Assembly: GCA_030432755.1 (NCBI GenBank)
Contig: JAUILZ010000007.1
Span: 92,389 to 156,388 of the forward strand
Length of the DNA stretch: 64,000 nt
Direction of reading: 5' to 3'
From: Gammaproteobacteria bacterium
GTDB lineage: Bacteria; Pseudomonadota; Gammaproteobacteria; Arenicellales; Poriferihabitantaceae
Shown here: piece after piece, positions 1-50,046 of the stretch
Layout: the number at the start of each line of letters is the position of its first letter
Position numbering within the stretch: position 1 is the first letter of the stretch
The notes under the pieces: model-generated
What the model was told of the DNA's origin: nothing
Seen by the model: only the letters and a program-made list of their open reading frames with translations
The model's database searches: none
Program-made: the position numbers and the translations under genes

Positions 1-132
1 CGCTGCCATCCGCTCAATCCGGGGGGCTGGGATCCGGTTCCCGGATCAAAGATGGCGAAGGAAAACGACACAGCGCCGGGGGATGCGGAAGACGCGACCG
101 CCGGCAACCACTATCAACACGCACCGCAGTAA
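1..132 (+). CDS. yidD: Membrane protein insertion efficiency factor YidD, C-terminal fragment (5' end outside window)
   Basis: Frame 1 reads RCHPLNPGGWDPVPGSK... to TAA at 130-132. This matches the conserved YidD C-terminal motif, and it lies directly upstream of yidC as in the rnpA-yidD-yidC-mnmE cluster. Confidence 0.7.
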   Translation, partial: RCHPLNPGGWDPVPGSKMAKENDTAPGDAEDATAGNHYQHAPQ

Positions 133-147
133 CACCGACACTCCCCG

Positions 148-1845
148 ATGGATTTCCGACGACTGATTCTTTTCGGCGCTCTCGGCCTGGTCCTGATGAT
201 GATCTGGCAGTCCTGGATCCAGTTCCAGGTGGAGCACGACCCGAATTACGCCGCCCAGGGCGGCACGGAATCCGCCACCGGCGCCGGCACTACTGGTGGC
301 AGCACCAATCTCAGCGACGACATTCCCACCGCACCCGCGGTAACCACCGAAGCGGCGCCCGCGACGCCGGAGTCGGAGCCTGCGGCGGAAGCTGCCACGA
401 CCGGACGCATCATCAACGTCGAGACTGATGTCATCCGCGCGCAGATCGACACCCATGGCGGCGACCTGGTGCGGGTGGAGCTGCTGAAGCATCCGGTCAG
501 CGTGGAAACCCCGGACGACCCCTTCGTCCTCATGCACCGTGACAGCCCGGCGCTCTACGTTGCCCAAAGCGGTCTCATTGGTAGCAGCGAGCGCGAGTAT
601 CCGAATCACAACGTGGAATTCACCACTGACCGGGATTCGGTGACCCTGGGTGATGGCGAAGACGTGCAGGTGGTACTGCGCTGGGACGCGCCCGACGGCG
701 TGGCTTACACGAAGACCTATACCTTCCGTCGGGACAGCTACCGCATTGACGTGGACTTCGGCGTAGAGAACCGTAGCGACACGGACTGGACCGGCTTCTT
801 CTACGGCCAACTGAAGCAGACCGAGGTTTCCCAGCCGGGCTCCATGGGGTTCCTTGGACGCCTCCCGAGTTACAACGGCGCGGTGATCTACACCGGCGAG
901 GAAAAATACGAGAAGGTCAACTATGGCGACATCGCCGATGGTCCGCTCAATGTCACCACCGGTACGGGCTGGGTGGCGATGCTGCAGCATTACTTCGTCG
1001 GCGCCTGGTTGCCCGGCGGGACTTCCGCGGTACAACTCTATTCCGGCGTCAGTCGCAATACCACGCTGCCGCAGTACCGTATCGGCTTCAAGCAGACCGA
1101 GCCGGTGCACATCGCCGCCGGCGGTAGCGGCAACGTAAGCAGTTCCCTGTTCGTCGGGCCCAAGAACCAGAAGCGGCTCAATGCCCTCGAGGTGGAAGGC
1201 ATCGAACTCACCGTGGACTATGGCTGGCTCACCCCCGTCGCGGAGCCCCTGTTCTGGCTGCTGCAGAAGATCCACGACCTCGTCGGCAACTGGGGCTGGG
1301 CGATCATCCTGCTTACCGTGCTGGTGAAACTGGTTTTCTTCCCGTTGTCCGCCGCGAGCTACAAGTCGATGGCGAAGATGAAGAAGCTGCAGCCGCGCCT
1401 GCAGACGCTGAAGGAGCGTTACGGCGACGACAAGCAGAAATTCCAGCAGGAGATGATGAAGCTGTACAAGACGGAGAAGGTCAATCCGGCTGGTGGCTGT
1501 CTTCCCATCCTGGTGCAGATCCCGGTATTCATCGCGCTTTACTGGGTGTTGCTGGAGAGTGTCGAGCTGCGCCAGGCGGACTTCGCGCTCTGGCTCAGGG
1601 ACCTCTCGCTGCCGGACCCGTACTTCGTCCTGCCGATCATCATGGGCGCTTCCATGCTGGCGCAACAGCTTCTCAACCCGGCCCCGCTGGACCCGCTGCA
1701 GAAGAAAATCATGACCGCGCTGCCCGTGGTGTTCACCGTGTTCTTCCTCTGGTTCCCCGCCGGTCTCGTCCTCTACTGGGTGGTGAACAACCTGTTGTCC
1801 ATTGCGCAGCAATACTTCATCACCCGGAAGTACCAGTCCAGCTGA
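148..1845 (+). CDS. yidC: Membrane protein insertase YidC
   Basis: 565 aa. N-terminal TM MDFRRLILFGALGLVLMMIWQSW, a large periplasmic domain, and a C-terminal 60 kDa IMP core (GWAIILLTVLVKLVFFPL, KLQPRLQTLKERYGDDKQK, NPAGGCLPILVQIPVFIALYWVL). Confidence 0.97.
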   Translation: MDFRRLILFGALGLVLMMIWQSWIQFQVEHDPNYAAQGGTESATGAGTTGGSTNLSDDIPTAPAVTTEAAPATPESEPAAEAATTGRIINVETDVIRAQIDTHGGDLVRVELLKHPVSVETPDDPFVLMHRDSPALYVAQSGLIGSSEREYPNHNVEFTTDRDSVTLGDGEDVQVVLRWDAPDGVAYTKTYTFRRDSYRIDVDFGVENRSDTDWTGFFYGQLKQTEVSQPGSMGFLGRLPSYNGAVIYTGEEKYEKVNYGDIADGPLNVTTGTGWVAMLQHYFVGAWLPGGTSAVQLYSGVSRNTTLPQYRIGFKQTEPVHIAAGGSGNVSSSLFVGPKNQKRLNALEVEGIELTVDYGWLTPVAEPLFWLLQKIHDLVGNWGWAIILLTVLVKLVFFPLSAASYKSMAKMKKLQPRLQTLKERYGDDKQKFQQEMMKLYKTEKVNPAGGCLPILVQIPVFIALYWVLLESVELRQADFALWLRDLSLPDPYFVLPIIMGASMLAQQLLNPAPLDPLQKKIMTALPVVFTVFFLWFPAGLVLYWVVNNLLSIAQQYFITRKYQSS

Positions 1846-3193
1846 CCACGGCCAGGACCCGGACAACGGCCAGGGCAACGACACCATTGTCGCCCCGGCC
1901 ACGCCGTACGGACGCGGCGGCATCGGCATCGTGCGGCTGTCAGGGTCCGCGGTGGCGGACATCGCGCGCGCCCTGACCGGCGTCCTGCCCGCGCCGAGGG
2001 AGGCCTGCTTCACGGTATTTCGCGACGCCGACGGCAGCGCCCTCGACGAGGGCATCGCGATCCATTTCCCCGGTCCTCAGAGCTATACCGGCGAGGACGT
2101 CCTCGAACTCCAGGGGCACGGCAGTCCGCTGGTGCTCGACATGATGGTGCGGCGCTGCCTCGCCCTCGGCGCGCGCCTCGCGCGGCCGGGGGAATTCAGC
2201 GAGCGCGCCTTCCTCTCGGGTCGCATGGACCTCGCCCAGGCGGAGGCGGTGGCGGATCTCATCGAGAGCAGCACCGAGGCCGCCGCGCGCTCCGCGCTCA
2301 ACGCCTTGCGGGGCCAGTTCTCCACCGAGGTCCATGCGCTATCGGATCAGCTTACCGGGCTGCGCGTCTACGTCGAGGCGGCGATCGATTTCCCCGACGA
2401 GGAGATCGACTTCCTCGCGGACGGCGAGGTGCTGCGGCGACTCGAGGCGCTCGAGCAGGCATTTTCCGAACTGCGCCGGGGCATGCGCCGTGGACGCCTG
2501 CTGCGCGACGGATTTCGCGTGGTCCTGAGCGGCGCGCCCAATGCCGGCAAATCCAGTCTCCTCAATCACCTGCTGCGCGAGCAGCGCGCCATCGTCAGCG
2601 ACATTCCGGGCACTACCCGGGACGTTCTCGAACAGTATCTCGATCTCGACGGCCTGCCGGTGCTGCTGGTGGATACCGCCGGCATTCGCGAGAGCCGCGA
2701 CGAGATCGAGGCCGAGGGCGTGCGCCGCGCGCGGGCGGCACGCTCGGGCGCCGACCTGGTGTTGCATGTCGTGGACCATGCAGCGGACGGCGACGCACTG
2801 CCTGCTGCTGACGATAGCGGAGCGCCGCTGCTGACCGTGTTCAACAAGATCGACCGCAGCGGCCATATGCCCGGGGCGGAAAAAAGCGCGATATACCTGT
2901 CCGCGAAAACCGGCGCGGGCGTCTCGCTGTTGGTCGAACGGATCAAGTCACTGGCAGGCTATTTCGAGGCCGATGGTGGCGGATTCATCGCTCGTCAGCG
3001 GCACATCGATGCGCTCGAGCGCGCCCATGATCGTGTCCATCACGGCATCACCCAGCTACGCGAATTCCACGCCGGTGAACTGCTCGCGGAAGAGCTTCGT
3101 CTCGCGCAACTGGCGCTCGGTGAAATCACCGGCGAGGTCACCAGCGACGAGTTGCTGGGACACATCTTCAGCGCGTTCTGCATCGGCAAATAG
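1802..3193 (+). CDS. mnmE: tRNA modification GTPase MnmE (TrmE)
   Basis: DTIVAPATPYGRGGIGIVRLSG N-domain, G1 GAPNAGKSSLLN, DTAG, NKID, and C-terminal CIGK. The start is uncertain: the only in-frame start before the conserved N-terminus is TTG at 1802, which overlaps yidC by 44 nt. Confidence 0.92.
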   Translation: MRSNTSSPGSTSPADHGQDPDNGQGNDTIVAPATPYGRGGIGIVRLSGSAVADIARALTGVLPAPREACFTVFRDADGSALDEGIAIHFPGPQSYTGEDVLELQGHGSPLVLDMMVRRCLALGARLARPGEFSERAFLSGRMDLAQAEAVADLIESSTEAAARSALNALRGQFSTEVHALSDQLTGLRVYVEAAIDFPDEEIDFLADGEVLRRLEALEQAFSELRRGMRRGRLLRDGFRVVLSGAPNAGKSSLLNHLLREQRAIVSDIPGTTRDVLEQYLDLDGLPVLLVDTAGIRESRDEIEAEGVRRARAARSGADLVLHVVDHAADGDALPAADDSGAPLLTVFNKIDRSGHMPGAEKSAIYLSAKTGAGVSLLVERIKSLAGYFEADGGGFIARQRHIDALERAHDRVHHGITQLREFHAGELLAEELRLAQLALGEITGEVTSDELLGHIFSAFCIGK

Positions 3194-3262
3194 CGCTACC
3201 CGGCGCCGCGCCTGCGCGTGAGCGCGCCGGGGTTGACATTGTAGGCGGCGCGAAGGCCACCT

Positions 3263-3268
3263 TATAAT
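3263..3268 (+). promoter_or_regulatory. Candidate -10 hexamer (perfect TATAAT) upstream of the ExbB-like/ExbD-like pair
   Basis: TATAAT at 3263-3268 in the 178-nt mnmE-to-3372 spacer. A perfect TTGACA lies at 3233-3238, but the spacer is 24 nt, too long for a canonical sigma70 pair. Confidence 0.3.
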
Positions 3269-3371
3269 CAGGCCATTCCTGCCGAATACGCCAGTCGGGG
3301 CCGGCGGGGGGAAACACAAATACGAATGGCCCAGCCCCGCCGATAAAGCGAGCCCGAAGAGGACAGCGACC

Positions 3372-4400
3372 ATGAGTAGAAGCACGCGGCTGACCACCAA
3401 CTACACCCAGAGCATCCTCATCCAGATGGTGCTCGTGCTGGTGATACTGGTGGGCGTCACGATCTGGCAATGGGATACGTTCCGCTCGATCTATATCCAC
3501 AACCAGGTCAACGCCGTCGGCTGGGTGATCAATGGCGGCATCGCGCTCCTTTTCCTGAGTGGCCTCGTTCAGCTCGTTGCCCGGTTCGCGGAGTACCGCA
3601 AGCAGGAAATCGCGCTCAACCGCTTCCTCGACAACGTGCACAACGACGAGGATCCGCTCAAGGGAATCGACCAGGCGAGCATGATCGCCGAGCGTTACCT
3701 GACCCTGGGCAAGCTCAACCGGCGGCGCGCACGGATCAACCACAGCGCCCTCGCGGCAACGCTCCACGCGGTGGAATCGAGCCGCAACAGCTACCTCAAG
3801 TTCGTCCAGAGCGTGCTCGTGCTCACCGGCGTTTTCGGCACCATCGTCTCGTTGTCCATCTCGCTGCTCGGCGCTTCCAACATCATCCAGGTCGGCCTGC
3901 ACGAGGCGCAGAGCACCGACGGCATGGGCACCATGATCTTCGGCATGTCCACGGCGCTGTCCACCACCATGTCGGCGATCCTCGCCTACCTCATCTTCGG
4001 CTACTTCTTCATCAAGCTCACGGATACCCAGACCTATCTCATCAGCCGGGTTGAGGAGGTCACCGCGACCACGTTGCTGCCGCATCTCCAGTCCATCCAG
4101 GACAAGGTCACCATGGACTACTCCGAGAGCATACGCGGGGCGACGGAGCTGATGCAGCGCTTCGACCAGTCCCAGCGGGTGTACGCCGACTCCGCCCAGC
4201 AGTTGCAGTCCTCCATCGAGCAGATCGCGGCCAACTATCGTCCGGAACTCACGGACGCCAGCGTGGAGACCGGCCGCCAGGTGCTGGAGGAGTTGCGCGA
4301 GATCGGCGAGAGGCAGCGCGAGGTTGCGCTGCGCAATGAACAGGCCATGGCGCAGATGATCCAGTTGCTGCGCGAAGGATTCCGCCTGAGCGGCAAGTAA
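3372..4400 (+). CDS. MotA/TolQ/ExbB-family proton-channel protein (A subunit of a stator-like pair), atypical
   Basis: 342 aa with four hydrophobic helices (about aa 14-33, 48-70, 145-166, 188-214). TM3 VLVLTGVFGTIVSL (G-x-x-GT) and TM4 GMSTALSTTMSAILAYLIFGYFF (AL-x-TT) match the signature helices of MotA/TolQ/ExbB. It has a 120-aa helical C-terminal tail. AGAGGA lies about 10 nt upstream of the ATG. Confidence 0.8.
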   Translation: MSRSTRLTTNYTQSILIQMVLVLVILVGVTIWQWDTFRSIYIHNQVNAVGWVINGGIALLFLSGLVQLVARFAEYRKQEIALNRFLDNVHNDEDPLKGIDQASMIAERYLTLGKLNRRRARINHSALAATLHAVESSRNSYLKFVQSVLVLTGVFGTIVSLSISLLGASNIIQVGLHEAQSTDGMGTMIFGMSTALSTTMSAILAYLIFGYFFIKLTDTQTYLISRVEEVTATTLLPHLQSIQDKVTMDYSESIRGATELMQRFDQSQRVYADSAQQLQSSIEQIAANYRPELTDASVETGRQVLEELREIGERQREVALRNEQAMAQMIQLLREGFRLSGK

Positions 4401-4409
4401 GCCGGTCCG

Positions 4410-6035
4410 ATGTCGGAAGAGAGCGGCTTCATCGACCTCAGGGTCGGCCACGGTATCCGCGGGCCCGGCGACGAAAGCGTCTGGCCGTCGTTCACCGACA
4501 TCATGACCGTGGTGGTGATGATCTTCCTCATGGCGCTGGTGATCATCATGGTGCGCAACAGCGATCTCAATCGCCAGTTGCTCAGCAGTTTCGATGTCAA
4601 CCAGGCAATCTCCAACGCCAACGTCGGCTTGAGCTCCGAGGTCAGCACCCTGCGCGACAACCTGCTCGCGATGCAGAAGGCGCTGGGGGACACCGAGAAC
4701 GAGAAACAGGACCTCAGCCGGCTGCTCGCGGACGAGACCGGCCGAGTGATCCAGTTGCTCGCGGCCAAGGACGCGCTTGAGCAGGAAGTGTCCGGCCTGA
4801 GCGAGCTCAAGGCCAGCCTGAGCGCGGAGAATCTCGACCTGCTGGCGGAGAAGGACCGCCTGACAGAAGTGAATCTCTCGCTGCTGGCGGACAAGGACCG
4901 GATGACGCTGGAGAACAGCGACCTGGCCACGGAGAACCAGCGCCTGCGTGACGCCAATGCGGCGCTGACGCAAAGCCGTGACCAGCTTTCCACCGAGAAC
5001 CAGGCGCTCACCACGGAGCGGGATACGCTGCGGGTCAACCTCGGCGACCTGCAGGATCGCAACCAGGTTCTCGAGTCGGACAAGGCGGCGCTGATCAGCC
5101 AGAGCGAGACGCTGGCGGCGTCGCGCGACGAGCTCGACCGCGAGAAACAGGCGTTGGCGGAGGAGGTGGAAACACTGATGGCGGCGCGGCGCCAGCTTCA
5201 GGCCGATCTCGAGTCCCTGCGCGAGGCGAACCAGGGGCTTGCCACGCGCAGCTCCGAACTCGAAGAGGAGAACCAGCGCCGCCAGGAGACCATCGAGGAC
5301 CTGTCCCGCCAGGAAGCGCTGCTGTCCAGCCAGCTCGCGGATATCTCGAGCCAGCTCGAGCAGCTGACCGTTTCCTCCGAGGCGGAGGTCGGCTCGCTGA
5401 CCCGGCGCAATCTGTCCTTGTCCGAGCAACTCGACGACGTCAACCTCAAGCTCGCGCAGCTCAATCTCGAGCTCGAACGCCAGCGGGCCCAGGAGTCCAC
5501 GCTGCTGGAGCAACTGGCGGATCGCCGGCGCGAGTTCGAGCAACTCCAGTCGCGGGAACAGTCCGCGCTGGAGCAGTATTCCGCCGCGAGCGAGGAAATC
5601 GAGGCGTTGGCGGAGCGCATCCGCGCGCGCGAATCGGAGAATCGTGAACTCCAGGCCGAGGCGGAGCGCCAGGGCGAGCTGTTCGTGTCGTTGCAGGAGG
5701 AATACGATGCCCTGGAGGAACGCTACCGCGGCCTGGTGCGCGCGGCGCGCTCGCCGGCCGGCAAGGAGGTCGCCGAGGTTTACTACCTGCGCTCCCCGAG
5801 CGGCTACGAGTATCGCCTGCGGACGCCCGGGGATGTCTCGCCGGAACTGGTCACCAGGGGGGAACTGGACAGCCGCCTCGCGGAACTCAAGGAACGCCAT
5901 GGCAGGGACCTCTACACCCGGGTGATCATTCCCGAGGACAGCAACCTGTCGCATAACGAGGCCTGGCGATTCACCCAGGAGATCCTCAACAACTACGACT
6001 ACTACTACCAACCCGTGGAGCGCGACGGGGAGTAG
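4410..6035 (+). CDS. ExbD/TolR-like membrane anchor fused to a ~370-aa coiled coil and a possibly ExbD-like C-terminal domain (B subunit of the stator-like pair)
   Basis: 541 aa. The N-terminus WPSFTDIMTVVVMIFLMALV resembles the ExbD/TolR/MotB TM helix and has a single membrane-embedded Asp (D30, codon 4497-4499). Residues about 75-445 are heptad-repeat coiled coil. The C-terminal ~90 aa (EVYYLRSPSGYEYRL...DLYTRVIIPEDSNLSHNEAWRFTQEIL) resembles the ExbD periplasmic domain. No OmpA-type peptidoglycan-binding motif is visible. It starts 9 nt after the upstream gene. Confidence 0.8.
   Translation: MSEESGFIDLRVGHGIRGPGDESVWPSFTDIMTVVVMIFLMALVIIMVRNSDLNRQLLSSFDVNQAISNANVGLSSEVSTLRDNLLAMQKALGDTENEKQDLSRLLADETGRVIQLLAAKDALEQEVSGLSELKASLSAENLDLLAEKDRLTEVNLSLLADKDRMTLENSDLATENQRLRDANAALTQSRDQLSTENQALTTERDTLRVNLGDLQDRNQVLESDKAALISQSETLAASRDELDREKQALAEEVETLMAARRQLQADLESLREANQGLATRSSELEEENQRRQETIEDLSRQEALLSSQLADISSQLEQLTVSSEAEVGSLTRRNLSLSEQLDDVNLKLAQLNLELERQRAQESTLLEQLADRRREFEQLQSREQSALEQYSAASEEIEALAERIRARESENRELQAEAERQGELFVSLQEEYDALEERYRGLVRAARSPAGKEVAEVYYLRSPSGYEYRLRTPGDVSPELVTRGELDSRLAELKERHGRDLYTRVIIPEDSNLSHNEAWRFTQEILNNYDYYYQPVERDGE
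4830..5375 (+). repeat. Thirteen consecutive 14-residue (42-nt) periodic units inside the coiled-coil CDS
   Basis: From aa 141-322: NLDLLAEKDRLTEV / NLSLLADKDRMTLE / NSDLATENQRLRDA / NAALTQSRDQLSTE / NQALTTERDTLRVN and onward. Position 4 is Leu or Ile in 13/13 units, and position 11 is Leu or Met in 12/13. The first two units (4830-4871, 4872-4913) are about 74% identical at the DNA level, consistent with tandem duplication. Confidence 0.75.
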
Positions 6036-6074
6036 ATAAGCTCTGGGTTTTCAGTGAGTTGCGTCAGGCGCCCG

Positions 6075-6083
6075 TGATATAAT
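6075..6083 (+). promoter_or_regulatory. Candidate extended -10 promoter element (TGaTATAAT) immediately upstream of mnmG
   Basis: TGATATAAT at 6075-6083. The hexamer ends 6 nt before the mnmG ATG (6090). No good -35 is present (GTGAGT at 17-nt spacing). Confidence 0.4.
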
Positions 6084-6089
6084 CGGGCC

Positions 6090-7970
6090 ATGCAGGCGCG
6101 CGGAAAATTCGATGTCATCGTGATCGGTGGCGGCCACGCGGGGGTGGAAGCCGCCCTGGCGGCCGCGCGCGCCGGCGCGTCCACGCTGCTGGTGACCCAC
6201 AACATCGAGACCGTGGGCCAGATGTCGTGCAATCCCGCCATCGGCGGCATCGGCAAGGGTCATATCGTCAAGGAGATCGACGCCCTCGGCGGGATCATGG
6301 CGCGCGCCATCGACCGCGCCGGCATCCACTTCCGAATTCTCAACGCGCGCAAGGGCCCGGCGGTCCAGGCCACCCGCGCCCAGGCGGACCGTGCTCTCTA
6401 CCGCATGGCCATCCGCGCCGCGGTGGAACGCCAGCCCGGCCTGACCCTGTTCCAGGAGGCGGTGGATGACCTCCTGGTGGAAGGCGGAAGGGTGCAGGGC
6501 GTGCGCACCCGGATCGGCATCACCTTCGTGGCGCCCGCCGTGGTGCTCACCACCGGCACGTTCCTCAACGGCAAGATCCATATCGGCATGGACAATGCCA
6601 TGGGCGGGCGCGCCGGCGACCCGCCCTCCATCGCGCTCGCCGACCGGCTGCGGGAAATGGCGCTCGGCGCGGACCGCCTGAAAACCGGGACCCCGCCGCG
6701 GATCGACGGCCGTACCATCGATTACAGCGAGCTCGCGCCGCAGCCCGGCGACGAGCCGGTGCCGGTGTTCTCCTTCATCGGCAGCGCGGCGGAGCACCCG
6801 GCCCAGGTGAACTGCCACATCACCCATACCAATGCCCGCACCCACGAGATCATCGCCGCCGGCCTCGATCGCTCACCGCTCTACGGCGGCGTCATCGAGG
6901 GCACCGGACCGCGTTACTGCCCGTCCATCGAGGACAAGGTGGTGCGCTTCGCCGACCGCGCGAGCCACCAGATCTTCATCGAGCCGGAGGGGCTGAACAC
7001 CACCGAGGTGTATCCCAACGGCATCTCCACCAGCCTGCCGTTCGACGTCCAGCAGGAACTGGTACGCAGCATTCGCGGATTCGAGAACGCGCGCATCACG
7101 CGACCCGGCTACGCCATCGAGTACGATTACTTCGATCCGCGCGGGTTGAAGCACAGCCTCGAGACCCGCGCCATCGAGGGGCTCTATTTCGCCGGCCAGA
7201 TCAACGGCACCACCGGCTACGAGGAGGCCGCGGGCCAGGGCCTGGTGGCGGGTCTCAACGCCGCGCGCCAGGTCGCCGGGCGCGAACCATGGTACCCGGG
7301 CCGCGGCGACGCTTACATCGGCGTGATGATCGATGACCTCGTGACCCTCGGCACGAGCGAACCCTATCGCATGTTCACCTCGCGCGCCGAGTACCGCCTG
7401 CAGCTGCGGGAGGACAATGCCGACCTGCGGCTGACGGAGACCGGGCGCGAACTCGGCCTGGTGGACGATGAGCGCATGCGGCGATTCGAAGCCAAGCGCG
7501 AGGCGGTAACCAGCGAGAAGCAGCGCCTGTCGCGCACCTGGCTGCATCCCGGCAGGCTCGACCCGGTACGCGAACAGCAGGTGCTCGGCCAGCCCCTTGC
7601 ACGCGAGGTCAACCTGCTGGAACTGCTGCGTCGCCCCGGCGTGGATTACCGCGCCGTGACGGGACTGGCGGGGCTCGCGGATACCCTCGCCGACCCCGAG
7701 GCGGTGCGCCAGCTGGAGGTCCAGGCGCGCTACGATGGCTACATCGAGCGTCAGCAGGGCGAGATCGCGCGCCTCCGGCGCCAGGAGAATACCGTCATCC
7801 CCGCAGACATGGATTATGAAACCGTGCGCGGGCTGTCAGCCGAGGTGCGGCAGAAGCTGGGCGAATCCCGGCCCGAGACAGTGGGCCAGGCGGCGCGAAT
7901 TCCGGGTATCACGCCGGCAGCGGTATCCCTTTTGCTGGTGCATCTCAAGCGTATCCAGCGGGCCGCCTGA
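6090..7970 (+). CDS. mnmG: tRNA uridine 5-carboxymethylaminomethyl modification enzyme MnmG (GidA)
   Basis: 626 aa. [24 protein letters not shown] fold, [24 protein letters not shown], and [19 protein letters not shown]. Confidence 0.97.
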
Positions 7971-8001
7971 ACCACCCCGGGCAATTCAACAGCCGAATCC
8001 C

Positions 8002-9351
8002 TCAGCGCAGGGTGACCAGCTCCTCCGCCGCTGTGGGATGGATCGCCACGGTATCGTCGAAGTCGCGCTTGGTGGCGCCCATCTTCACCGCCACCGCGAA
8101 TCCCTGCAGCATCTCGTCGGCGCCGTCGCCGATGACATGGCAGCCGACGACGCGCTCCTCCTCGCCCACGGTAACAAGTTTGACCACCGTGGGTGGTTTG
8201 TGCGCGGACACCGCGTAGCGCATGTTGACGAATCGGCTCTGGTAGACGCGTACGGCGTCGCCGTGGCGTTCCCGGGCCTCCTCCTCGGTCAGGCCCACGG
8301 TGCCGATGGGCGGGTGGCTGAACACCACAGTGGGAATGTTGTCGTAGTCGAGCATGGCGTCGGCGCGGTCGTTGAACAGCCTCTCCGAGAGGCGGCGCGC
8401 GGCGGCGATGGCCACCGGCGTGAGCGGCGGTTTGCGGGTCACGTCACCCACCGCATAGATGCCCGGGGCGCTGGTGTTCTGGAACGCGTCAATCTCGATG
8501 AAGCCGTCGTCGTCCAGGCTCACGCCGGTGTTCTCGAGCGCCAGGGATGCGACGCTGGTCTGCCGGCCGATAGCCCAGATGATGCAGTCGAATCCATGCA
8601 TGGAATCTCCGCCTGAGGCGCTGAAACCGAGGCTGCCGTCCGCACTCCGCTGGAGCCCGGAGACGCTGACCCCGCGCAGGATACGGATGCCGGCCGCCTC
8701 CATCTGCTCCATCAGAACCTCGTGCAGGGTGTGATCGAAGCTGCGTAGCAGCCTGTCCTTGCGCAGCAGAATGGTCACCTGGCTGCCGAGTCCGTGGAGG
8801 ACGCCGGCGAGTTCCGCGGCAATGTAACCGGCGCCGATGACGAGGACATTATGTGGCTGCTCCGCGAGGGTGAAGAAGCCGTCGCTTGTGATGCCGAGTT
8901 CCGCCCCCGGCAGGTCCGGCACCGTGGGCTGGCCACCTGTGGCGACGAGGATATGGGGTGCCTCGTAGCGCTCGCCGTCCACCTCGACGATGTGGTCGCT
9001 GACGAATCTCCCGGTGCCGCGTACCAGGCTGACCCCGGAGCCGTCGAGGTTGCGTGCGTAGATGCCGTTCAGGCGCTCGACATAGGCGTCGCGGGCGGAC
9101 TTCAGCTTGCGCCACTGGAAACCGCCGGTTTCCACCCCAAATCCGTAGTCAGAGGCGAGTTGCAGCGTTTCCGCCACCTGGGCGGTATTCCACATGACCT
9201 TCTTCGGCACGCAGCCCACGTTGACGCACGTGCCGCCAAGGGGGCCGTGCTCGACGAGCAGTACCCGCGCGCCGTGTTCCGCCGCGCGGCGGGCGCCGGC
9301 GATGCCACCGCTGCCACCGCCGATGACGATAAAATCGAACTTTTTTGACAT
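8002..9351 (-). CDS. gor: Glutathione-disulfide reductase
   Basis: [24 protein letters not shown], redox-active [13 protein letters not shown], and C-terminal [12 protein letters not shown]. The start is taken at the ATG at 9351; the ORF-track start at 9426 adds a non-homologous extension. Confidence 0.92.
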
Positions 9352-9383
9352 CGGTTCAGACCCGATCAACCTACAGAGCGACC

Positions 9384-11444
9384 ATGCAGCAAGACAACCC
9401 GTTGATGGACCTGAGTGGACTGCCACGTTTCGACGCGATCTTACCAGAGCACGTGGAACCCGCCGTGGATGCGGTGCTGAAGCGCAACCGGGCGGCGATC
9501 CGGGAGCTGATCGATACCGTGGCGCGGCCGGAATGGGACAATTTCATGGCGCCGCTGGAGCAGCTAGACGACGATCTCGAACGGGTCTGGGCGCCGGTGT
9601 CGCATCTCAACGCGGTATGCGACAGCGAGGAGCTGCGCGTGGTCTACGAACGCTGTCTGCCGAAGTTGTCGGATTATTCCGCGGAACTGGGTCAGGACAG
9701 GGATTTGTACGAAAAGATCCACCACATCCGTCACCAGGGCCACTATGCCGAACTGGGTCGCGCGGAGCGCAAGGTGATCGACAATGCGCTCCGGGATTTC
9801 CATCTTTCGGGCGTCGACCTCGAGGCGGCGGACCAGGAGCGCTACCGCGAGATCACGAGCGAACTCTCGCGCCTCGGCAATTTCTTCTCGCGTAACCTGC
9901 TGGACGCCACCGACGCGTGGCACATCGACATCGCCGATGAATCCCGGCTCGCGGGAATCCCCGACAACGCCCGGGCGCAGGCGCGCCAGGCTGCCCTGGA
10001 AGCCGACATCGAGGGTTGGCGTTTCACCCTCCATGCGCCTTCGTTCCTGGCGGTCATGTCCCATGCGGACGATGCATCCCTGCGCGAAGAGGTATACCGC
10101 GCCTACGTGACCCGGGCGAGCGAGACGGGACCCAACGGCGGCCAGTGGGACAACGGCGGGGTAATGCTGGACATCCTCCGCCTGCGGCGGGAACTCGCCG
10201 TCCTCCTGGGATATACCGACTATGCCGCCTATTCCCTCGCCACCAAGATGGCGGACAGCAGCGAGGAGGTGCTGGGCTTCATCCGGCAGCTGGGGGGCAA
10301 GTGCCGCGAACCGGGACGCAGGGAGGTGCGCGCGCTGCGGCAGTTTGCCAGGGAGGAGCTGGGTATCCAGTCACTACAACCCTGGGACCTCGCCTGGGCG
10401 AGCGAGAAGTTGCGTCATCACCGATACGACTTCTCCCAGGAGTCCCTGCGTCCCTATTTTCCGCTGCCGCGGGTGCTGGAAGGCATGTTTACCATCGTCG
10501 GCCGCCTGTTCGGTATCCGCGTGGAGGCCGCCGAGGCGCCTTCGACCTGGCATCCCGATGTGCAGTTCTATCGAATCCTCGACGAGAGCGGGGCGCCGCG
10601 TGGACATTTCTACCTCGATCTCTACGCGCGCAAGCAGAAACGGGGTGGCGCCTGGATGGCGGATTGCATGGGACGCCGGCGGACCGACAACGGGCTGCAA
10701 CGCCCGGTAGCGTTTCTGACCTGTAATTTTTCCGCCCCGGTGGAGGGCCAGCCCGCGCTTCTGACCCACGACGAGGTCATCACCCTGTTCCACGAGTTCG
10801 GTCATGGGCTGCATCACATGCTCACCCGGGTGGACGTGGCCGGGGTGGCGGGGATCAACGGCGTGCCCTGGGACGCGGTGGAGCTGCCGAGCCAGTTCCT
10901 CGAGAACTGGTGCTGGGAGCGCGAGGCGCTGGACCTCATCTCCGGCCACGTGGACAGCGGCGAGCCGCTACCCCAGGAGCTGCTGGACAAGATGCGCCAG
11001 GGGCGCAACTTCCAGTCCGCGATGCAGATGTGCCGCCAGCTCGAGTTCAGCCTGTTCGACATGCGTCTGCATACAGAATTCGAGCCCGGCGGTGACGCAA
11101 CCATCCAGGATGTGCTCAACGGAGTGCGGGAAGAGGTGGCGGTAGTCGAGGCGCCAGCCTTCAATCGATTCCAGAATTCATTCGGTCATATCTTCGCCGG
11201 CGGATACGCCGCGGGCTACTACAGCTACCAGTGGGCAGAGGTGCTGTCCGCCGACGCGTTCAGCCTGTTCGAGGAAAAGGGCATTTTCGACGCCGCCACC
11301 GGACGCCGATTTCTCGCGGAAATCCTGGAGCGTGGCGGGAGCGAGGAACCGATGGTGCTGTTCGAGGCGTTTCGCGGCCGCAAGCCTACGGTGGACGCGC
11401 TGCTCCGGCACTCGGGATTGAGTCCGCTCGAGGATGCGGCGTAA
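9384..11444 (+). CDS. prlC: Oligopeptidase A (M3 family zinc metallopeptidase)
   Basis: N-terminus [24 protein letters not shown], zinc site HEFGHGLHH, and C-terminal [17 protein letters not shown]. The start is taken at the ATG at 9384. Confidence 0.93.
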
Positions 11445-11453
11445 AATGGCTGG

Positions 11454-12047
11454 ATGAACGCACAAAAAACCGGGTGGCTGGCCGCGGCGCTCCTGTTGCC
11501 GCTGGTGCTGGGGGTGGCGCACGGGGCCACGCTGTATAAATGGGTGGACGCCGACGGCAACGTGACCTATCAGGACACGCCGCCCCCGGACAACGTCCAG
11601 TTCGAGGAAAGCACCGTGGACGCGCCGCCGGCGCCGCTGCCGGAGGATGCCGGCCGGCAGATCGAGGAGGCCGCGCTGGAAAACCCGGTGTCTCTCTACT
11701 CGGTGCCGGACTGCGATGCCTGCGCGCTGGTGCGTCTGTATCTCGAGCGCAACTCCATTCCCTTCGCGGAAAAGGACGTGCGCAACAATCTCGACACTCA
11801 GGCGGAGCTCGAGCAGCGCGCCGGCTCCCTCACGGTGCCTACCCTGACGGTCGGTGACCGGGTTCTCGATGGCTACAGCCGCAGCGCGATCCGCGACGCG
11901 CTCGTCGATGCGGGATTTCCAGTGGATCGGCCAACTCCCGAGGCAACGGATAGTGGGGAGTCCGGCGAAGAACCGGCCAGCAGTGAAATCGCGTCACCTG
12001 AAACACCGGTGGCGGAAATAGAAAATTCCGATACCAATCAACAATGA
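11454..12047 (+). CDS. Secreted DUF4124-like domain fused to a glutaredoxin-fold domain
   Basis: Signal peptide LLLPLVLGVAHGA, then LYKWVDADGNVTYQDTPP (DUF4124-type), then LYSVPDCDACALVRLYLERNSIPFAEKDV...VPTLTV (C-x-x-C glutaredoxin/NrdH-like fold), then an acidic tail. Confidence 0.75.
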   Translation: MNAQKTGWLAAALLLPLVLGVAHGATLYKWVDADGNVTYQDTPPPDNVQFEESTVDAPPAPLPEDAGRQIEEAALENPVSLYSVPDCDACALVRLYLERNSIPFAEKDVRNNLDTQAELEQRAGSLTVPTLTVGDRVLDGYSRSAIRDALVDAGFPVDRPTPEATDSGESGEEPASSEIASPETPVAEIENSDTNQQ

Positions 12048-47328: not shown

Positions 47329-47925
47329 TCAGCCGAAAGCTTCCTTGAGCGCGAGGAATACGTCCCCGACCCGCGCCGCGAGGGTCCCGGCGTCGGCGTC
47401 ATTTCTTATGACATGGTCCGCCGCGACCATCCGCTCTTCATCGCTGGCCTGTTGCGCCATGATTCGCAGCACTTCGTCACGCGACATGCCCCGGGAAGTC
47501 TCCAGGCGCCGGATGCGCTCTTCCCGGGGGCAATGGACGACCACCACGCGGTCCATGTCGCGGTCGCGGCCGCTTTCCACCAGCAGCGGGATCTCCAGGA
47601 TGCAGAAGGGAGCGTCCGAGGCCGCGGCCATGGCATCCATCCTCTCCCGAATCAGGGGATGCAGAAGTTCCTCGAGCCATTGGCGCTCCCCGGGATCGGC
47701 GAACACGCGCCGGCCCAGGGCGGCGCGGTCGAGGGTTCCATCGTCCGAGAGGATACTGTCGCCAAACTTCTCCCGAATCGCCCCAAGCGCCGGGCCGCCC
47801 GGGGCGCAGACATCGCGCGCCACCTGGTCCGCGTCGATGACCGGCACGCCGTGTCCCGCGAACAGCGCCGCCACGGTGGACTTGCCGCTGCCGATGCCGC
47901 CGGTGAGGCCGATACGCGCCGCCAT
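47329..47925 (-). CDS. coaE: Dephospho-CoA kinase
   Basis: 198 aa. IGLTGGIGSGKSTVA P-loop. It lies downstream of pilD, as in the conserved pilBCD-coaE arrangement. Confidence 0.93.
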   Translation of the reverse strand: MAARIGLTGGIGSGKSTVAALFAGHGVPVIDADQVARDVCAPGGPALGAIREKFGDSILSDDGTLDRAALGRRVFADPGERQWLEELLHPLIRERMDAMAAASDAPFCILEIPLLVESGRDRDMDRVVVVHCPREERIRRLETSRGMSRDEVLRIMAQQASDEERMVAADHVIRNDADAGTLAARVGDVFLALKEAFG

Positions 47926-48794
47926 CAGAAGGCGAACAGCTTCAGGTAGCCGCTGGTGATTCGTTCGCCCCAGAGCAACGTGGCCCAGCCTCCGAGTGCG
48001 AGGAACGGGCCGAAGGAAACCGCCGCGCGGCGATCGAGTCCGCGCAACAGCATCAGCCCGACCGCCACCAGGGTGCCGGCGAGGGAGGACAGCAGTACCA
48101 CGGTGGGCAGCATCTCCCAGCCGAGCCAGGCGCCGAACGCGGCGAGCAGCTTGAAGTCGCCATAGCCGAGCCCCTCACGCCCCGTGAGCCGGTAGTGCAC
48201 CTGGTAAACCAGCCAGAATCCAAGGTAGCCCACGATGGCGCCGATCACCGCCGACTCGAGGGTGGTAAACAGGCCGAACAGGTTGGCGATCAGGCCGCCC
48301 CAGAGGAGTTTCAGCGTGAGGTCATCCGGGAGTAGCTGGTGGTCGAGGTCGATCACCGCGAGGGCGATCAGGGTCCAGACGAGAAACAGCGCGCCGACGA
48401 GTGGCCAGCCGATGCCGAAATGCCAGCCAAGATGCACGGTGGCGAGCGCGGTGACCAGTTCGACCACCGGGTAGCGCCAGTGGATACCCGTTCCGCATGC
48501 CGCGCATTTGCCGCGCAGCAGCAGGTAGCTGACGATCGGGATATTATGCCAGGCGCGCAGTCCGGCGCCGCAAGAGGGGCAGCGCGAGGCCGGCCGGCTG
48601 AGGTTGAAGACTTCCCGCGGAGAGTCGTCCGCGCCGTCCGGGCCTTCCAGCAATTCCGCGCACTGGCGCCGCCACTCGTTCTGCAGCATCACCGGGAGGC
48701 GCAGGATCACGACATTGAGAAAACTGCCGATGCAGGCGCCCAGCAGGCCGAGGAAAACCAGCCCCCAGGTCGGGTGTTGCAGCAGTGTCAGCAA
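47925..48794 (-). CDS. pilD: Prepilin peptidase / N-methyltransferase PilD
   Basis: 289 aa polytopic. Paired Cys motifs SRCPSCG...GKCAACG, and the catalytic-Asp context GYGDFKLLAAFG. Confidence 0.93.
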   Translation of the reverse strand: MLTLLQHPTWGLVFLGLLGACIGSFLNVVILRLPVMLQNEWRRQCAELLEGPDGADDSPREVFNLSRPASRCPSCGAGLRAWHNIPIVSYLLLRGKCAACGTGIHWRYPVVELVTALATVHLGWHFGIGWPLVGALFLVWTLIALAVIDLDHQLLPDDLTLKLLWGGLIANLFGLFTTLESAVIGAIVGYLGFWLVYQVHYRLTGREGLGYGDFKLLAAFGAWLGWEMLPTVVLLSSLAGTLVAVGLMLLRGLDRRAAVSFGPFLALGGWATLLWGERITSGYLKLFAF

Positions 48795-48812
48795 GCGAAC
48801 GGCTGCTGGCCG

Positions 48813-50036: not shown

Positions 50037-50046
50037 GCTATCGATC

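What the first reader, a model, noticed from the sequence alone, without database searches (positions are those of the whole stretch)
3372..6035. Orphan ExbB/MotA-like channel plus an ExbD-like protein carrying a ~370-residue coiled coil: candidate uncharacterised 5:2 ion-driven motor
Two tightly linked genes (9-nt gap) sit between mnmE and mnmG. Gene A (342 aa) has four hydrophobic helices, and the last two carry the family signatures of MotA/TolQ/ExbB channels (VLVLTGVFGTIVSL and GMSTALSTTMSAILAYLIFGYFF). It also has a 120-aa helical tail. Gene B (541 aa) opens with WPSFTDIMTVVVMIFLMALV. This lines up with the ExbD/TolR/MotB anchor helix (E. coli ExbD, as I recall it, reads TPFIDVMLVLLIIFMV), including the single membrane-embedded Asp that is the protonatable residue in all known stators. 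Its last ~90 aa may resemble the ExbD/TolR periplasmic domain rather than an OmpA-type peptidoglycan-binding domain. About 370 residues of coiled coil lie between anchor and C-terminal domain. In TonB and Tol systems the periplasm-spanning arm is a separate protein (TonB, TolA). In GldLM it is part of the B-like subunit. Here the arm appears fused to an ExbD-like B subunit, and no TonB, TolA, Pal, flagellar, gliding or Zorya partner is adjacent. I do not recognise this architecture as a described system.
Basis: partly seen in the sequence, partly recalled or inferred. Interest (0 to 1): 0.85.

Follow-up and report, generated by a model that had tools for sequence, protein, structure and literature searches.

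The report
Unnamed ion-motor gene pair with stalk
Two adjacent genes look like a new, unnamed branch of the membrane ion-driven motors that power flagella and Ton/Tol transport. Its inner subunit carries a very long coiled-coil stalk and an end domain unlike any described family. What the machine does is unknown.

Summary
Genes A (3372-4400, 342 aa) and B (4410-6035, 541 aa) lie 9 nt apart between mnmE and mnmG. A is a divergent MotA/ExbB/TolQ-type subunit: it falls below the Pfam threshold, but 14 of 30 homologues hit PF01618, and the top 46 PDB fold matches of its AlphaFold model are all ExbB, TolQ, ZorA, PomA or MotA. B has a MotB/ExbD-type helix with Asp30, which is invariant in 209 of 209 relatives. 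A proline-free coiled coil of about 380 residues follows, then a C-terminal alpha/beta domain. The claim that this domain is ExbD-like is not supported. An exhaustive profile search of 1.84 billion proteins found only 378 clusters, and Foldseek, PDB and hhalign gave nothing significant. A sits immediately upstream of B in every locus where both genes are readable, in at least 251 species genomes (Arenicellales, Acidiferrobacterales, Chromatiales-like sulfur oxidisers, Zetaproteobacteria, some Desulfobacterota). No third gene recurs, and the pair is absent from plasmids and phages. Sources call it "hypothetical protein", and I found no paper describing it. I read it as an uncharacterised 5:2-type motor, a new variant of a known kind. 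B subunits that carry their own periplasmic arm already have precedents (GldM, TPH-vWA proteins, PRK09039-type proteins). Stoichiometry, ion and cellular role are untested.

The parts
3194..3371 (+). Intergenic region upstream of A (178 nt). It holds a GAGGA ribosome-binding site 9 nt before the ATG. It also holds perfect TTGACA (3233-3238) and TATAAT (3263-3268) hexamers, but they are 24 nt apart.
   Evidence: Sequence read. The promoter scan found no canonical site on the + strand and no terminator between 3000 and 6300. No Rfam family matched.
3372..4400 (+). Gene A, 342 aa: a divergent MotA/ExbB/TolQ-type channel (pentamer-type) subunit.
3408..3581 (+). A transmembrane helices TM1 (about aa 13-33) and TM2 (about aa 48-70), joined by a short conserved periplasmic loop (Y41, N44, Q45, N47 invariant). 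Boundaries are approximate.
   Evidence: Hydrophobic stretches and AF2 helices H11-32 and H48-90. Invariant residues.
3582..3809 (+). A compact cytoplasmic loop (about aa 71-146). It is rich in Arg and Lys and has 2-3 short helices. It is of the ExbB/TolQ type, not the large MotA torque domain.
   Evidence: hhalign against MotA gave nothing (P = 0.45).
3810..4010 (+). A TM3 (about aa 147-168, LTGVFGTIVSLS with invariant T157) and TM4 (about aa 187-213, GMSTALSTT with invariant T194, T198, T199). These are the putative ion-path helices facing the Asp of B.
   Evidence: PF01618 profile positions 35-125. In one search, hhalign places GVFGTI over ExbB GLFGTV and GMSTALSTT over GIAEALLAT.
4011..4397 (+). 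A cytoplasmic C-terminal tail (about aa 214-342). It is predicted as a helical hairpin whose middle varies in sequence and length. It ends in the invariant motif LxxGFRL (4368-4388).
   Evidence: pLDDT 47-65 in the tail. No heptad periodicity.
4410..6035 (+). Gene B, 541 aa: a MotB/ExbD-type (dimer-type) subunit with a long coiled coil and a novel C-terminal domain.
4410..4481 (+). B cytoplasmic N-terminus (aa 1-24) with the conserved motif GFxDLRxG.
   Evidence: F7, D9, L10, R11 and G18 at least 90% conserved.
4482..4553 (+). B transmembrane (transpore) helix, aa 25-48, WPSFTDIMTVVVMIFLMALVIIMV. The Asp30 codon is at 4497-4499.
   Evidence: D30 is invariant in 42 of 42 sequences and in 209 of 209 family members with an intact N-terminus. 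It aligns with ExbD D25 and MotB D32. ZorB hits and PRK09039/PRK09040 hits cover this region.
4554..5699 (+). B coiled-coil stalk, about aa 49-430, or about 55 nm if it is one continuous coil.
   Evidence: 0 Pro and strong heptad periodicity. Coiled-coil and SMC-type profile hits. Length is variable across the family, 127-467 aa.
4808..4915 (+). A 42-nt tandem repeat (2.6 copies, 72% matching) encoding 14-residue (two-heptad) units inside the coil.
5700..6032 (+). B C-terminal region, aa 431-541. It comprises the conserved linker LVRxARSxAGK, a globular core at about aa 453-529 (5766-5996) with order beta-beta-beta-alpha-beta-alpha, and the terminal motif YDYYYQ.
   Evidence: core pLDDT 82-91; 378 clusters found; the domain is at the C-terminus in all 150 listed.

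Best explanation
A and B are the two subunits of an uncharacterised member of the MotAB/ExbBD/TolQR/ZorAB superfamily of ion-driven 5:2 motors.

Inferred mechanism. Five A subunits (four TM helices each, N- and C-termini in the cytoplasm) form a ring around the transmembrane helices of a B dimer. Protons, or possibly Na+, pass between Asp30 of B and the Thr/Ser-lined TM3 and TM4 of A (T157, T194, T198, T199), and this drives rotation of A relative to B.

What differs from the known systems lies outside the membrane. The B dimer continues as a proline-free parallel coiled coil, about 380 residues here and 127-467 across the family. The coil acts as a periplasmic stalk and ends in a conserved aromatic-rich alpha/beta domain of a new family. 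My best guess is that this domain fixes or engages the stalk on the cell wall or an outer-membrane partner.

On the cytoplasmic side, each A carries a helical tail of about 125 residues with an invariant GFRL end, and B carries a conserved GFxDLRxG N-terminus. These look like docking or regulatory elements.

The pair sits among core housekeeping genes, so I expect an envelope-maintenance or force-transduction role rather than defence, flagellar motility or TonB-type uptake.

Shown: the homology and fold of A, the anchor helix and invariant Asp of B, the coiled coil, the distinctness of the C-terminal domain, the strict A-B linkage, and the genomic context. Inferred: the 5:2 stoichiometry, the topology, the ion, which part rotates, what the end domain binds, and the cellular role.
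For: A. PF01618 matches 14 of 30 homologues, best E = 1.4e-5. Four homologues are flagged PF01618 and one is named "MotA/TolQ/ExbB proton channel family protein" by NCBI. Foldseek of the AF2 model gives ExbB, TolQ, ZorA, PomA or MotA as hits 1-46, with TM-score to target 0.5-0.6 over about 225 columns. hhalign puts GVFGTI and GMSTALSTT over the ExbB GLFGTV and GIAEALLAT helices.

B. Asp30 is invariant in 209 of 209 relatives. The helix aligns to ExbD (P = 5.9e-4) and MotB (P = 0.013) with the Asp residues matched. Homologue P0197 passes the PF02472 cut-off. Of 42 members, 28 hit PRK09040, 26 hit PRK09039 and 7 hit ZorB1.

Coiled coil.

Linkage. A lies immediately upstream of B in all 11 loci, in 71 of the 72 (L064 ends inside B, whose start one search finds there) and in all 77. 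In some loci the stop and start codons overlap.

Context. In relatives the order is gyrB-dnaN-dnaA / yidD-yidC-mnmE-A-B-mnmG-rsmG-parAB-atp. There are no hits in plasmids or phages.

The shortest stalk in the family is 127 residues, about 19 nm. That lower bound fits a need to span the periplasm.
Against: The window's own A is below the Pfam cut-off. A profile of the A family finds no ExbB, TolQ or MotA in a search of PDB sequences. hhalign probabilities against single E. coli sequences are low. The AF2 model of A is only moderately confident (pLDDT 69). No complex was modelled, so the stoichiometry is assumed from the superfamily.

The coil in this window (about 55 nm) is roughly twice the usual periplasmic width, and coil length varies nearly four-fold across the family. 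That does not fit a simple rigid spacer. The C-terminal domain has no detectable relative, so its ligand is a guess. There are no expression or phenotype data.
Confidence: 0.6

Rival explanations
1. The pair is only the energiser of a larger system. A separate TonB/TolA-like transducer or an outer-membrane partner is encoded elsewhere in the genome, and the B stalk is an accessory.
For: ExbBD and TolQR work this way. In six Sedimenticolaceae/Thiodiazotropha-type loci, two Slp-family outer-membrane lipoprotein genes follow B directly. Whole-genome co-occurrence could not be tested here.
Against: No third gene recurs across the loci examined. B already carries its own arm and end domain. Slp is adjacent in only 6 of about 160 loci.
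Confidence: 0.2
2. It is a Zorya-like anti-phage sensor: a ZorAB-type motor with a cytoplasmic tail that signals envelope damage.
For: A has a C-terminal cytoplasmic tail, as ZorA does. ZorB models give weak hits on the anchor helix of B (E = 3.6e-4; ZorB1 in 7 of 42 members). ZorA appears among the fold hits.
Against: There are no ZorC, ZorD, ZorE or other effector genes nearby. The pair sits in the origin-proximal housekeeping cluster, conserved across orders. It is absent from plasmids and phages. The ZorA PADLOC hit is not significant (E = 1.8). B lacks the ZorB peptidoglycan-binding domain.
Confidence: 0.03
3. It is a motility stator, whether flagellar, gliding or pilus-associated.
For: B's anchor helix resembles MotB, and NCBIfam MotB-like families PRK09039/PRK09040 hit it. 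PomA and MotA are among the weaker fold hits.
Against: A has a compact cytoplasmic loop of about 75 residues rather than the MotA torque-generating domain, and hhalign to MotA gives P = 0.45. B has no OmpA-like domain. The pair is never in a flagellar or gliding cluster. Carriers include sponge symbionts and open-ocean MAGs.
Confidence: 0.05
4. The coiled coil is cytoplasmic, and the pair has an origin- or chromosome-related or cytoskeletal role. JGI annotates some B homologues as "chromosome segregation ATPase".
For: SMC models hit all 42 B homologues. The genes lie next to the dnaA/parAB origin cluster.
Against: The SMC hits cover only coiled-coil segments and score far below the cut-off (49.8 bits against 567), and there is no ATPase head. 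With the Asp five residues from the N-terminal end of the helix, homology to MotB and ExbD implies N-in, C-out. Outside two orders the pair is not near the origin genes.
Confidence: 0.05
5. The resemblance is due to chance, or the ORFs are not real genes.
For: The window proteins themselves have only sub-threshold profile hits.
Against: There are hundreds of conserved homologues with invariant motifs. Third-position GC is 0.88-0.90. Gene order is strictly conserved. The fold hits are coherent.
Confidence: 0.01

Closest known systems
ExbB-ExbD and TolQ-TolR (Ton and Tol-Pal motors)
   Same: These are the best fold matches for A. A has the same compact cytoplasmic domain. B's anchor helix and Asp align best with ExbD. 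The gene order is A then B.
   Different: A has an extra N-terminal TM helix (four TMs, N-terminus inside) and a tail of about 125 residues. B has a coiled coil of 127-467 residues and an unrelated end domain in place of the ExbD/TolR periplasmic domain. No TonB, TolA, TolB or Pal gene is adjacent.
MotAB/PomAB flagellar stators
   Same: A has a four-TM topology. B has an N-terminal helix with the essential Asp near the cytoplasmic face.
   Different: There is no MotA torque-generating cytoplasmic domain. There is no OmpA-like peptidoglycan-binding domain. There is no flagellar context.
ZorAB of Zorya
   Same: It is a 5:2-type pair in which the A subunit has a cytoplasmic C-terminal helical tail. 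There are weak ZorB hits on B's helix.
   Different: The tail is far shorter than I recall for ZorA (an unchecked recollection) and is not a heptad coiled coil. There are no effector genes. The location is housekeeping rather than a defence island. B's periplasmic part is different.
GldLM/PorLM (type 9 secretion and gliding motor)
   Same: The B-type subunit itself forms a long dimeric periplasmic shaft (PMC9389320).
   Different: No sequence or profile match was found. From my knowledge of the family, GldM uses Ig-like and other domains rather than a coiled coil, lacks the Asp-in-B arrangement, and GldL has two TM helices.
TPH-vWA proteins paired with tolQ-like genes (PMC12204202, section 8)
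   Same: This is a two-gene module without a separate TolR or ExbD. A protein with an Asp-bearing transpore helix carries its own periplasmic linker and distal domain. Its function is also unknown.
   Different: In those proteins the distal domain is a vWA fold, and they come mostly as heterologous pairs. Here there is a single B gene, a coiled coil and a novel small alpha/beta domain.
NCBIfam PRK09039/PRK09040 MotB-like 'peptidoglycan-binding' and 'hypothetical' proteins
   Same: These are the closest named sequence families for the N-terminal part of B. Of 42 members, 26 hit NF006543 (best E = 3.2e-12) and 28 hit NF006547. For the window's B the NF006542/NF006543 matches cover the helix and the first 110-175 residues after it.
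   Different: All scores are far below the curated cut-offs (for example 21.8 bits against 388), so B is not a member. By their names those families are peptidoglycan-binding, and I recall an OmpA-like C-terminal domain (not checked here); B has no OmpA domain. I found no functional study of those families either.

Membership tests
MotA/TolQ/ExbB channel family (Pfam PF01618), for A | A score at or above the Pfam gathering cut-off | tested here: inconclusive
   The window's A scores 16.3 bits against a cut-off of 22.9 (E = 0.0083). Fourteen of 30 homologues hit at E <= 0.01, best 1.4e-5. Four homologues carry a precomputed PF01618 flag.
MotA/TolQ/ExbB channel family, for A | The ExbB/TolQ/MotA fold: a TM helix pair continuous with cytoplasmic helices | tested here: met
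   In the Foldseek search of PDB, hits 1-46 are all ExbB, TolQ, ZorA, PomA or MotA. The best is 9ddo_A at E = 9.7e-4, with TM-score to target up to 0.60. The model has pLDDT 69.
MotA/TolQ/ExbB channel family, for A | Conserved Thr on the last two TM helices, lining the pore around the B-subunit Asp | tested here: met
   T157, T194, T198 and T199 are invariant in 30 sequences. The hhalign register with ExbB is GVFGTI over GLFGTV and STALSTT over AEALLAT (that alignment is itself weak, P = 0.005).
5:2 motor complexes in general | An A5B2 assembly with the B helices inside the A ring | not testable with these tools
MotB/ExbD/TolR B subunits, for B | A single N-terminal TM helix with an invariant Asp near its cytoplasmic end | tested here: met
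   D30 is invariant in 209 of 209 relatives. It aligns with ExbD D25 (P = 5.9e-4) and MotB D32 (P = 0.013). P0197 scores 28.5 bits against the PF02472 cut-off of 25.4 over aa 27-119.
MotB/ExbD/TolR B subunits, for B | Encoded immediately downstream of the A-type gene | tested here: met
   every locus where both genes are readable has this order. Some have overlapping stop and start codons.
ExbD/TolR (PF02472), for the C-terminal domain of B | A periplasmic domain homologous to the ExbD/TolR C-terminal domain | tested here: not met
   The profile search of PDB sequences found nothing. Foldseek's best hit is E = 0.1, with no ExbD or TolR in the top 50. hhalign gives P = 0.5 and 0.2. The exhaustive HMMER search found 378 clusters only. 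Two of 26 C-domains touch PF02472 at E >= 0.031. The secondary-structure order is compatible, so very remote homology is not excluded.
MotB/ZorB/Pal type | An OmpA-like peptidoglycan-binding domain (PF00691) | tested here: not met
   There is no PF00691 hit at E <= 10 for B or for its C-terminal segment.
Ton or Tol-Pal system | An adjacent TonB or TolA (SHLS-type anchor) and, for Tol, TolB and Pal | tested here: not met
   Apart from the genes of the origin cluster, no gene family recurs next to the pair. tblastn with E. coli TolA, TolQ, TolR, ExbB and ExbD found nothing in 2.2 Mb of held loci. The rest of each genome could not be searched.
Zorya | ZorAB together with ZorC/D (or E, F, G) effector genes, in defence-island or mobile context | tested here: not met
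   PADLOC gives ZorA E = 1.8 and ZorB only on the helix. There are no effector neighbours, and the pair is absent from plasmids and phages.
Flagellar stator | The large MotA cytoplasmic torque-generating domain and a flagellar gene context | tested here: not met
   The cytoplasmic loop is about 75 residues. hhalign against MotA gives P = 0.45. Context.

The most novel reading that the evidence does not exclude
This is a distinct, self-contained class of ion-driven 5:2 machine. The B dimer is itself a long coiled-coil shaft or torsion bar (19-70 nm) capped by a new envelope-binding domain. The A ring carries a cytoplasmic tail with a docking motif. Two genes would then couple the membrane potential mechanically to both the outer envelope and the cytoplasm. 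It would serve as a housekeeping function in marine sulfur- and iron-oxidising proteobacteria and sponge symbionts.
Probability: 0.3. Interest if true: 0.8.

Novelty: new variant of a known kind. Interest (0 to 1): 0.55.

Why it matters
Only a handful of 5:2 ion-driven motors have a known job: flagellar rotation, Ton uptake, Tol-Pal division, gliding and T9SS, and Zorya defence. Recent surveys stress that many non-flagellar relatives remain unexplained (PMC12505986, PMC12204202). This pair is a clean case. It is a two-gene module with no Pfam or NCBIfam name, it is conserved in at least 251 species, and it is embedded in the origin-proximal housekeeping cluster. Its parts are unusually simple and suited to structural work: a plain coiled-coil stalk whose length varies naturally nearly four-fold, and a small new end domain. 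It could show how rotation or force is carried through a coiled coil across the periplasm. It could also reveal a new envelope function in ecologically important uncultured marine bacteria and sponge symbionts. If the end domain proves to be a very diverged ExbD domain and the role is Tol-like, the finding is a modest extension of known biology.

Tried and rejected
(1) HMMER profile of the A family against PDB sequences. Only coiled-coil and designed-protein noise came back, with no ExbB or MotA. Fold comparison was needed.

(2) hhalign of the family profiles against single E. coli ExbB, TolQ and MotA sequences. Probabilities were low, although the register with ExbB was sensible. Single-sequence templates are too weak.

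(3) All tests for an ExbD/TolR-like C-terminal domain were negative or insignificant. I ran no further search on building a deep ExbD profile, because the exhaustive HMMER search had already shown that the family does not reach ExbD or TolR.

(4) Search for a recurrent third gene. Only lineage-specific housekeeping neighbours turned up: DUF455, DUF4147/MOFRL, a metallophosphoesterase, cyclophilins, a TsaD-family protein and Slp.

(5) Defence reading. PADLOC hits are confined to the anchor helix and to coiled-coil noise. Rejected.

(6) Mobile-element reading. No plasmid or phage hits.

(7) RNA element or terminator around the genes. None found.

(8) DnaA-box cluster in the window. Not found: 2 near-matches against 3.7 expected.

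(9) The search for related loci with the C-domain alignment failed for lack of a conserved stretch. The exact-match lookup of the window's A found no record.

(10) Literature searches for this architecture or for PRK09039 found nothing relevant.

Full report
WHAT IS THERE. The two ORFs are exactly as described. A runs from 3372 to 4400 (342 aa) and B from 4410 to 6035 (541 aa), both on the + strand and 9 nt apart. yidC (148-1845) and mnmE (1802-3193) lie before them, and mnmG (6090-7970) follows. Their third-position GC (0.90 and 0.88) is the highest in the window, so they are native, coding genes. No terminator-like site lies between 3000 and 6300, and no Rfam family matches. A has a GAGGA ribosome-binding site. 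The closest relatives are metagenome-assembled genomes of Candidatus Poriferihabitaceae, sponge-associated Arenicellales in the Gammaproteobacteria, with A up to 81% identical.

GENE A. Against Pfam, the window protein reaches PF01618 (MotA_ExbB) only below the cut-off: 16.3 bits against 22.9, E = 0.0083, residues 131-227 on profile positions 35-125. NCBIfam and PADLOC give nothing meaningful. The family is large and well conserved, with at least 2330 database hits. Four homologues carry a precomputed PF01618 flag, and NCBI names one "MotA/TolQ/ExbB proton channel family protein". Of 30 aligned homologues, 14 hit PF01618 at E <= 0.01, best 1.4e-5.

A sequence profile of the family did not reach any solved ExbB or MotA. 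hhalign against single E. coli sequences was weak, P = 0.005 for ExbB, though the register is sensible: GVFGTI falls over GLFGTV and GMSTALSTT over GIAEALLAT.

The fold comparison settles the matter. The AlphaFold2 model (pLDDT 69, all-helical), searched against PDB, returns ExbB, TolQ, ZorA, PomA or MotA chains as its 46 best hits. TM-scores to the target are 0.5-0.6 over about 225 columns.

From the hydrophobic stretches, the model and the positive-inside rule, I read the following layout: four TM helices (about 13-33, 48-70, 147-168, 187-213), both termini in the cytoplasm, a compact Arg/Lys-rich cytoplasmic loop of about 75 residues, and a helical tail of about 125 residues. The middle of the tail varies in sequence and length, and its end (LxxGFRL; G336, F337, R338) is invariant. 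The tail shows no heptad periodicity. T157 on TM3 and T194, T198 and T199 on TM4 are invariant. They stand where ExbB and TolQ carry the pore-lining threonines.

GENE B. The N-terminus holds a conserved cytoplasmic motif (GFxDLRxG) followed by one TM helix, WPSFTDIMTVVVMIFLMALV. Asp30 is invariant in all 209 family members whose N-terminus is intact. hhalign matches it to ExbD D25 (P = 5.9e-4) and MotB D32 (P = 0.013). One homologue, P0197, passes the PF02472 ExbD cut-off over this region (28.5 bits against 25.4). ZorB models hit the same helix. Among 42 homologues, 28 hit NCBIfam PRK09040, 26 hit PRK09039 (best E = 3.2e-12) and 7 hit ZorB1, all far below the membership cut-offs. B is therefore a B-type subunit. 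Whether it is called ExbD-like or MotB-like is a matter of taste.

Residues 49-430 have no proline, 8 glycines and 18% leucine. Their 3.5-residue periodicity was never reached in 1000 shuffles. The many SMC and coiled-coil profile hits reflect this composition only. A 42-nt tandem repeat at 4808-4915 encodes two-heptad units. Across the family, the distance from the helix to the end domain ranges from 127 to 467 residues, or about 19 to 69 nm if the coil is continuous at 0.148 nm per residue. This window's coil is about 55 nm.

THE C-TERMINAL DOMAIN OF B. The last 110 residues or so are conserved: the linker LVRxARSxAGK, then LYTK, NEAWxFT and a terminal YDYYYQ. They are predicted with good confidence in the core (pLDDT 82-91) as beta-beta-beta-alpha-beta-alpha.
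- A family profile finds nothing among PDB sequences.
- Foldseek against PDB has a best E of 0.1. Its top 50 is a mixed set of weak hits (integrase cores, ribosomal proteins and others) with no ExbD or TolR, although ExbD and TolR periplasmic domains have solved structures.
- hhalign against E. coli ExbD and TolR gives P = 0.5 and 0.2.
- Only 2 of 26 C-domains touch PF02472, at E >= 0.031.
- An exhaustive HMMER search of 1.84 billion representative proteins finds just 378 clusters, 344 of them below 1e-10. In all 150 listed hits the domain is at the C-terminus of the protein.

The domain is thus a sharply bounded family with no Pfam model. From my memory of the ExbD structure (2PFU), the order of secondary-structure elements is the same, and the insignificant hhalign alignments fall in the equivalent region. 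Very remote homology therefore remains possible but is not shown.

DISTRIBUTION AND CONTEXT. A lies directly upstream of B in every locus where both genes are readable: all 11 close relatives, 71 of the 72 found with the A profile (the contig of L064 ends inside B, and ORF clustering finds B's start there), and all 77 found with the B profile. Some have overlapping stop and start codons. At least 251 species genomes carry the pair. They include Arenicellales, Acidiferrobacterales, Chromatiales, Sedimenticolaceae, Candidatus Thiodiazotropha, a Lamellibrachia endosymbiont, Thiotrichales, Zetaproteobacteria (Mariprofundaceae), some Desulfobacterales and Desulfuromonadales, and the cultured Thiohalomonas denitrificans, where B is annotated "hypothetical protein".

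In most Arenicellales and Acidiferrobacterales loci the pair sits between mnmE and mnmG. In two ocean and environmental contigs the wider order is gyrB-dnaN-dnaA / (yidD)-yidC-mnmE-A-B-mnmG-rsmG-parA-parB, followed in one of them by the atp operon; this is the classic origin-proximal cluster. Neither A nor B has a Pfam hit on record there. In other lineages the flanks differ and are housekeeping genes: DUF455, DUF4147/MOFRL, a metallophosphoesterase, cyclophilins and a TsaD-family protein. No third gene recurs. Two Slp-family outer-membrane lipoprotein genes follow B in six related loci only. The pair has no relatives in plasmid or phage collections.

HOW IT PROBABLY WORKS. Everything that can be checked matches the superfamily of 5:2 ion-driven motors. 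I therefore infer an A5B2 complex in which ions pass between Asp30 of B and the Thr/Ser-lined TM3 and TM4 of A, turning A relative to B. The parts outside the membrane are distinctive. The B dimer should continue as a parallel coiled-coil stalk in the periplasm (N-in, C-out by homology) and end in the new aromatic-rich domain. My best guess is that this domain binds peptidoglycan or an outer-membrane component. The family's minimum stalk of about 19 nm fits a need to cross the periplasm. On the inside, the conserved GFRL end of A's tail and the GFxDLRxG start of B look like docking or regulatory motifs. The housekeeping location argues for an envelope-maintenance or force-transduction role.

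None of the following was tested: stoichiometry, topology, ion, which part rotates, the ligand, or the cellular role. One fact fits poorly. This organism's stalk of about 55 nm is roughly twice the usual periplasmic width, and stalk length varies nearly four-fold across the family. The stalk may tilt, fold back, lie along the membrane or act as a flexible tether.

RIVALS. A separate partner encoded elsewhere is possible and could not be excluded without whole genomes. A Zorya-like defence role, a motility stator, and a cytoplasmic SMC-like role are each contradicted by context, missing domains and topology, as set out in the rival entries. Chance is excluded by the conservation.

COMPARISON WITH WHAT IS KNOWN. 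The review of 5:2 motors lists MotAB/PomAB, ExbBD, TolQR, AglRQS and GldLM (PMC9389320), and ZorAB has since been added. A 2025 survey of MotAB relatives notes great structural variety among non-flagellar "generic ion transporters", including very large periplasmic domains, but it does not describe this family (PMC12505986). A 2025 study of periplasmic force transducers reports proteins with an Asp-bearing transpore helix fused to a vWA domain. These pair with tolQ-like genes and have no tolR (PMC12204202). That is a direct precedent for a B subunit that is its own transducer. GldM is another. For the N-terminal part of B, the closest named sequence families are the MotB-like PRK09039/PRK09040 families, which I could not find characterised. 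Further searches found nothing on this architecture. The literature library is limited to open-access papers and bioRxiv, so an unseen description cannot be ruled out.

VERDICT. The pair is a real, conserved, unnamed two-gene member of the ion-driven motor superfamily, with a new B-subunit architecture: anchor helix, long coiled coil and novel end domain. It is a new variant of a known kind, not a new category. Interest is 0.55.

Noticed in passing
window 4368-4388 and 4425-4448: The invariant C-terminal motif of A (LxxGFRL) and the conserved N-terminal motif of B (GFxDLRxG) resemble each other. By the inferred topology both lie in the cytoplasm. They may dock on the same site or on each other.
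   Followed up: no
window 4808-4915: A 42-nt tandem repeat (2.6 copies, 72% matching) encodes 14-residue two-heptad units inside B's coiled coil. This is a plausible source of the four-fold variation in stalk length across the family (127-467 residues).
   Followed up: partly
window 4554-5699: If continuous, the coiled coil here is about 55 nm, roughly twice a typical periplasmic width. The sponge-symbiont and Arenicellales versions are among the longest in the family; the shortest members have about 19 nm. This is unexplained.
   Followed up: partly
window 3233-3268: Perfect TTGACA and TATAAT hexamers lie upstream of A, but with a 24-nt spacer. That is too long for a canonical sigma-70 promoter, and the scan did not call it.
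   Followed up: no
window 1-12000; L164 and L165: In relatives the pair lies in the origin-proximal cluster, where mnmG is followed by rsmG-parAB. In this window mnmG is followed instead by a glutathione-reductase-like gene on the minus strand and an oligopeptidase-A-like gene (both named by eye, not tested). GC skew changes sign at about 8-10 kb. No DnaA-box cluster was found.
   Followed up: partly
L140 9047-10055; also L144, L149, L158, L159, L162: One or, in five of the six loci, two Slp-family outer-membrane lipoprotein genes (PF03843, E = 8.6e-53 and 7.3e-37) lie directly downstream of B, on the same strand. This occurs in six Sedimenticolaceae/Thiodiazotropha-type loci only. They could be a lineage-specific outer-membrane partner, or the adjacency could be coincidental synteny.
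   Followed up: partly
window about 30500-51800: By eye, from ORF N-termini only and not tested: a cell-division and cell-wall cluster (ftsA at 38543, ftsZ at 39910, lpxC at 41256, secA at 42838), and type IV pilus genes pilB, pilC and pilD on the minus strand (47925-51807).
   Followed up: no
window 4410-6035: The window's own A is in the protein database as an exact match (P0001). The window's B is not: the best listed hit is 64% identical. B is far less conserved than A between the same genomes (for example 61% against 81% in L012).
   Followed up: no
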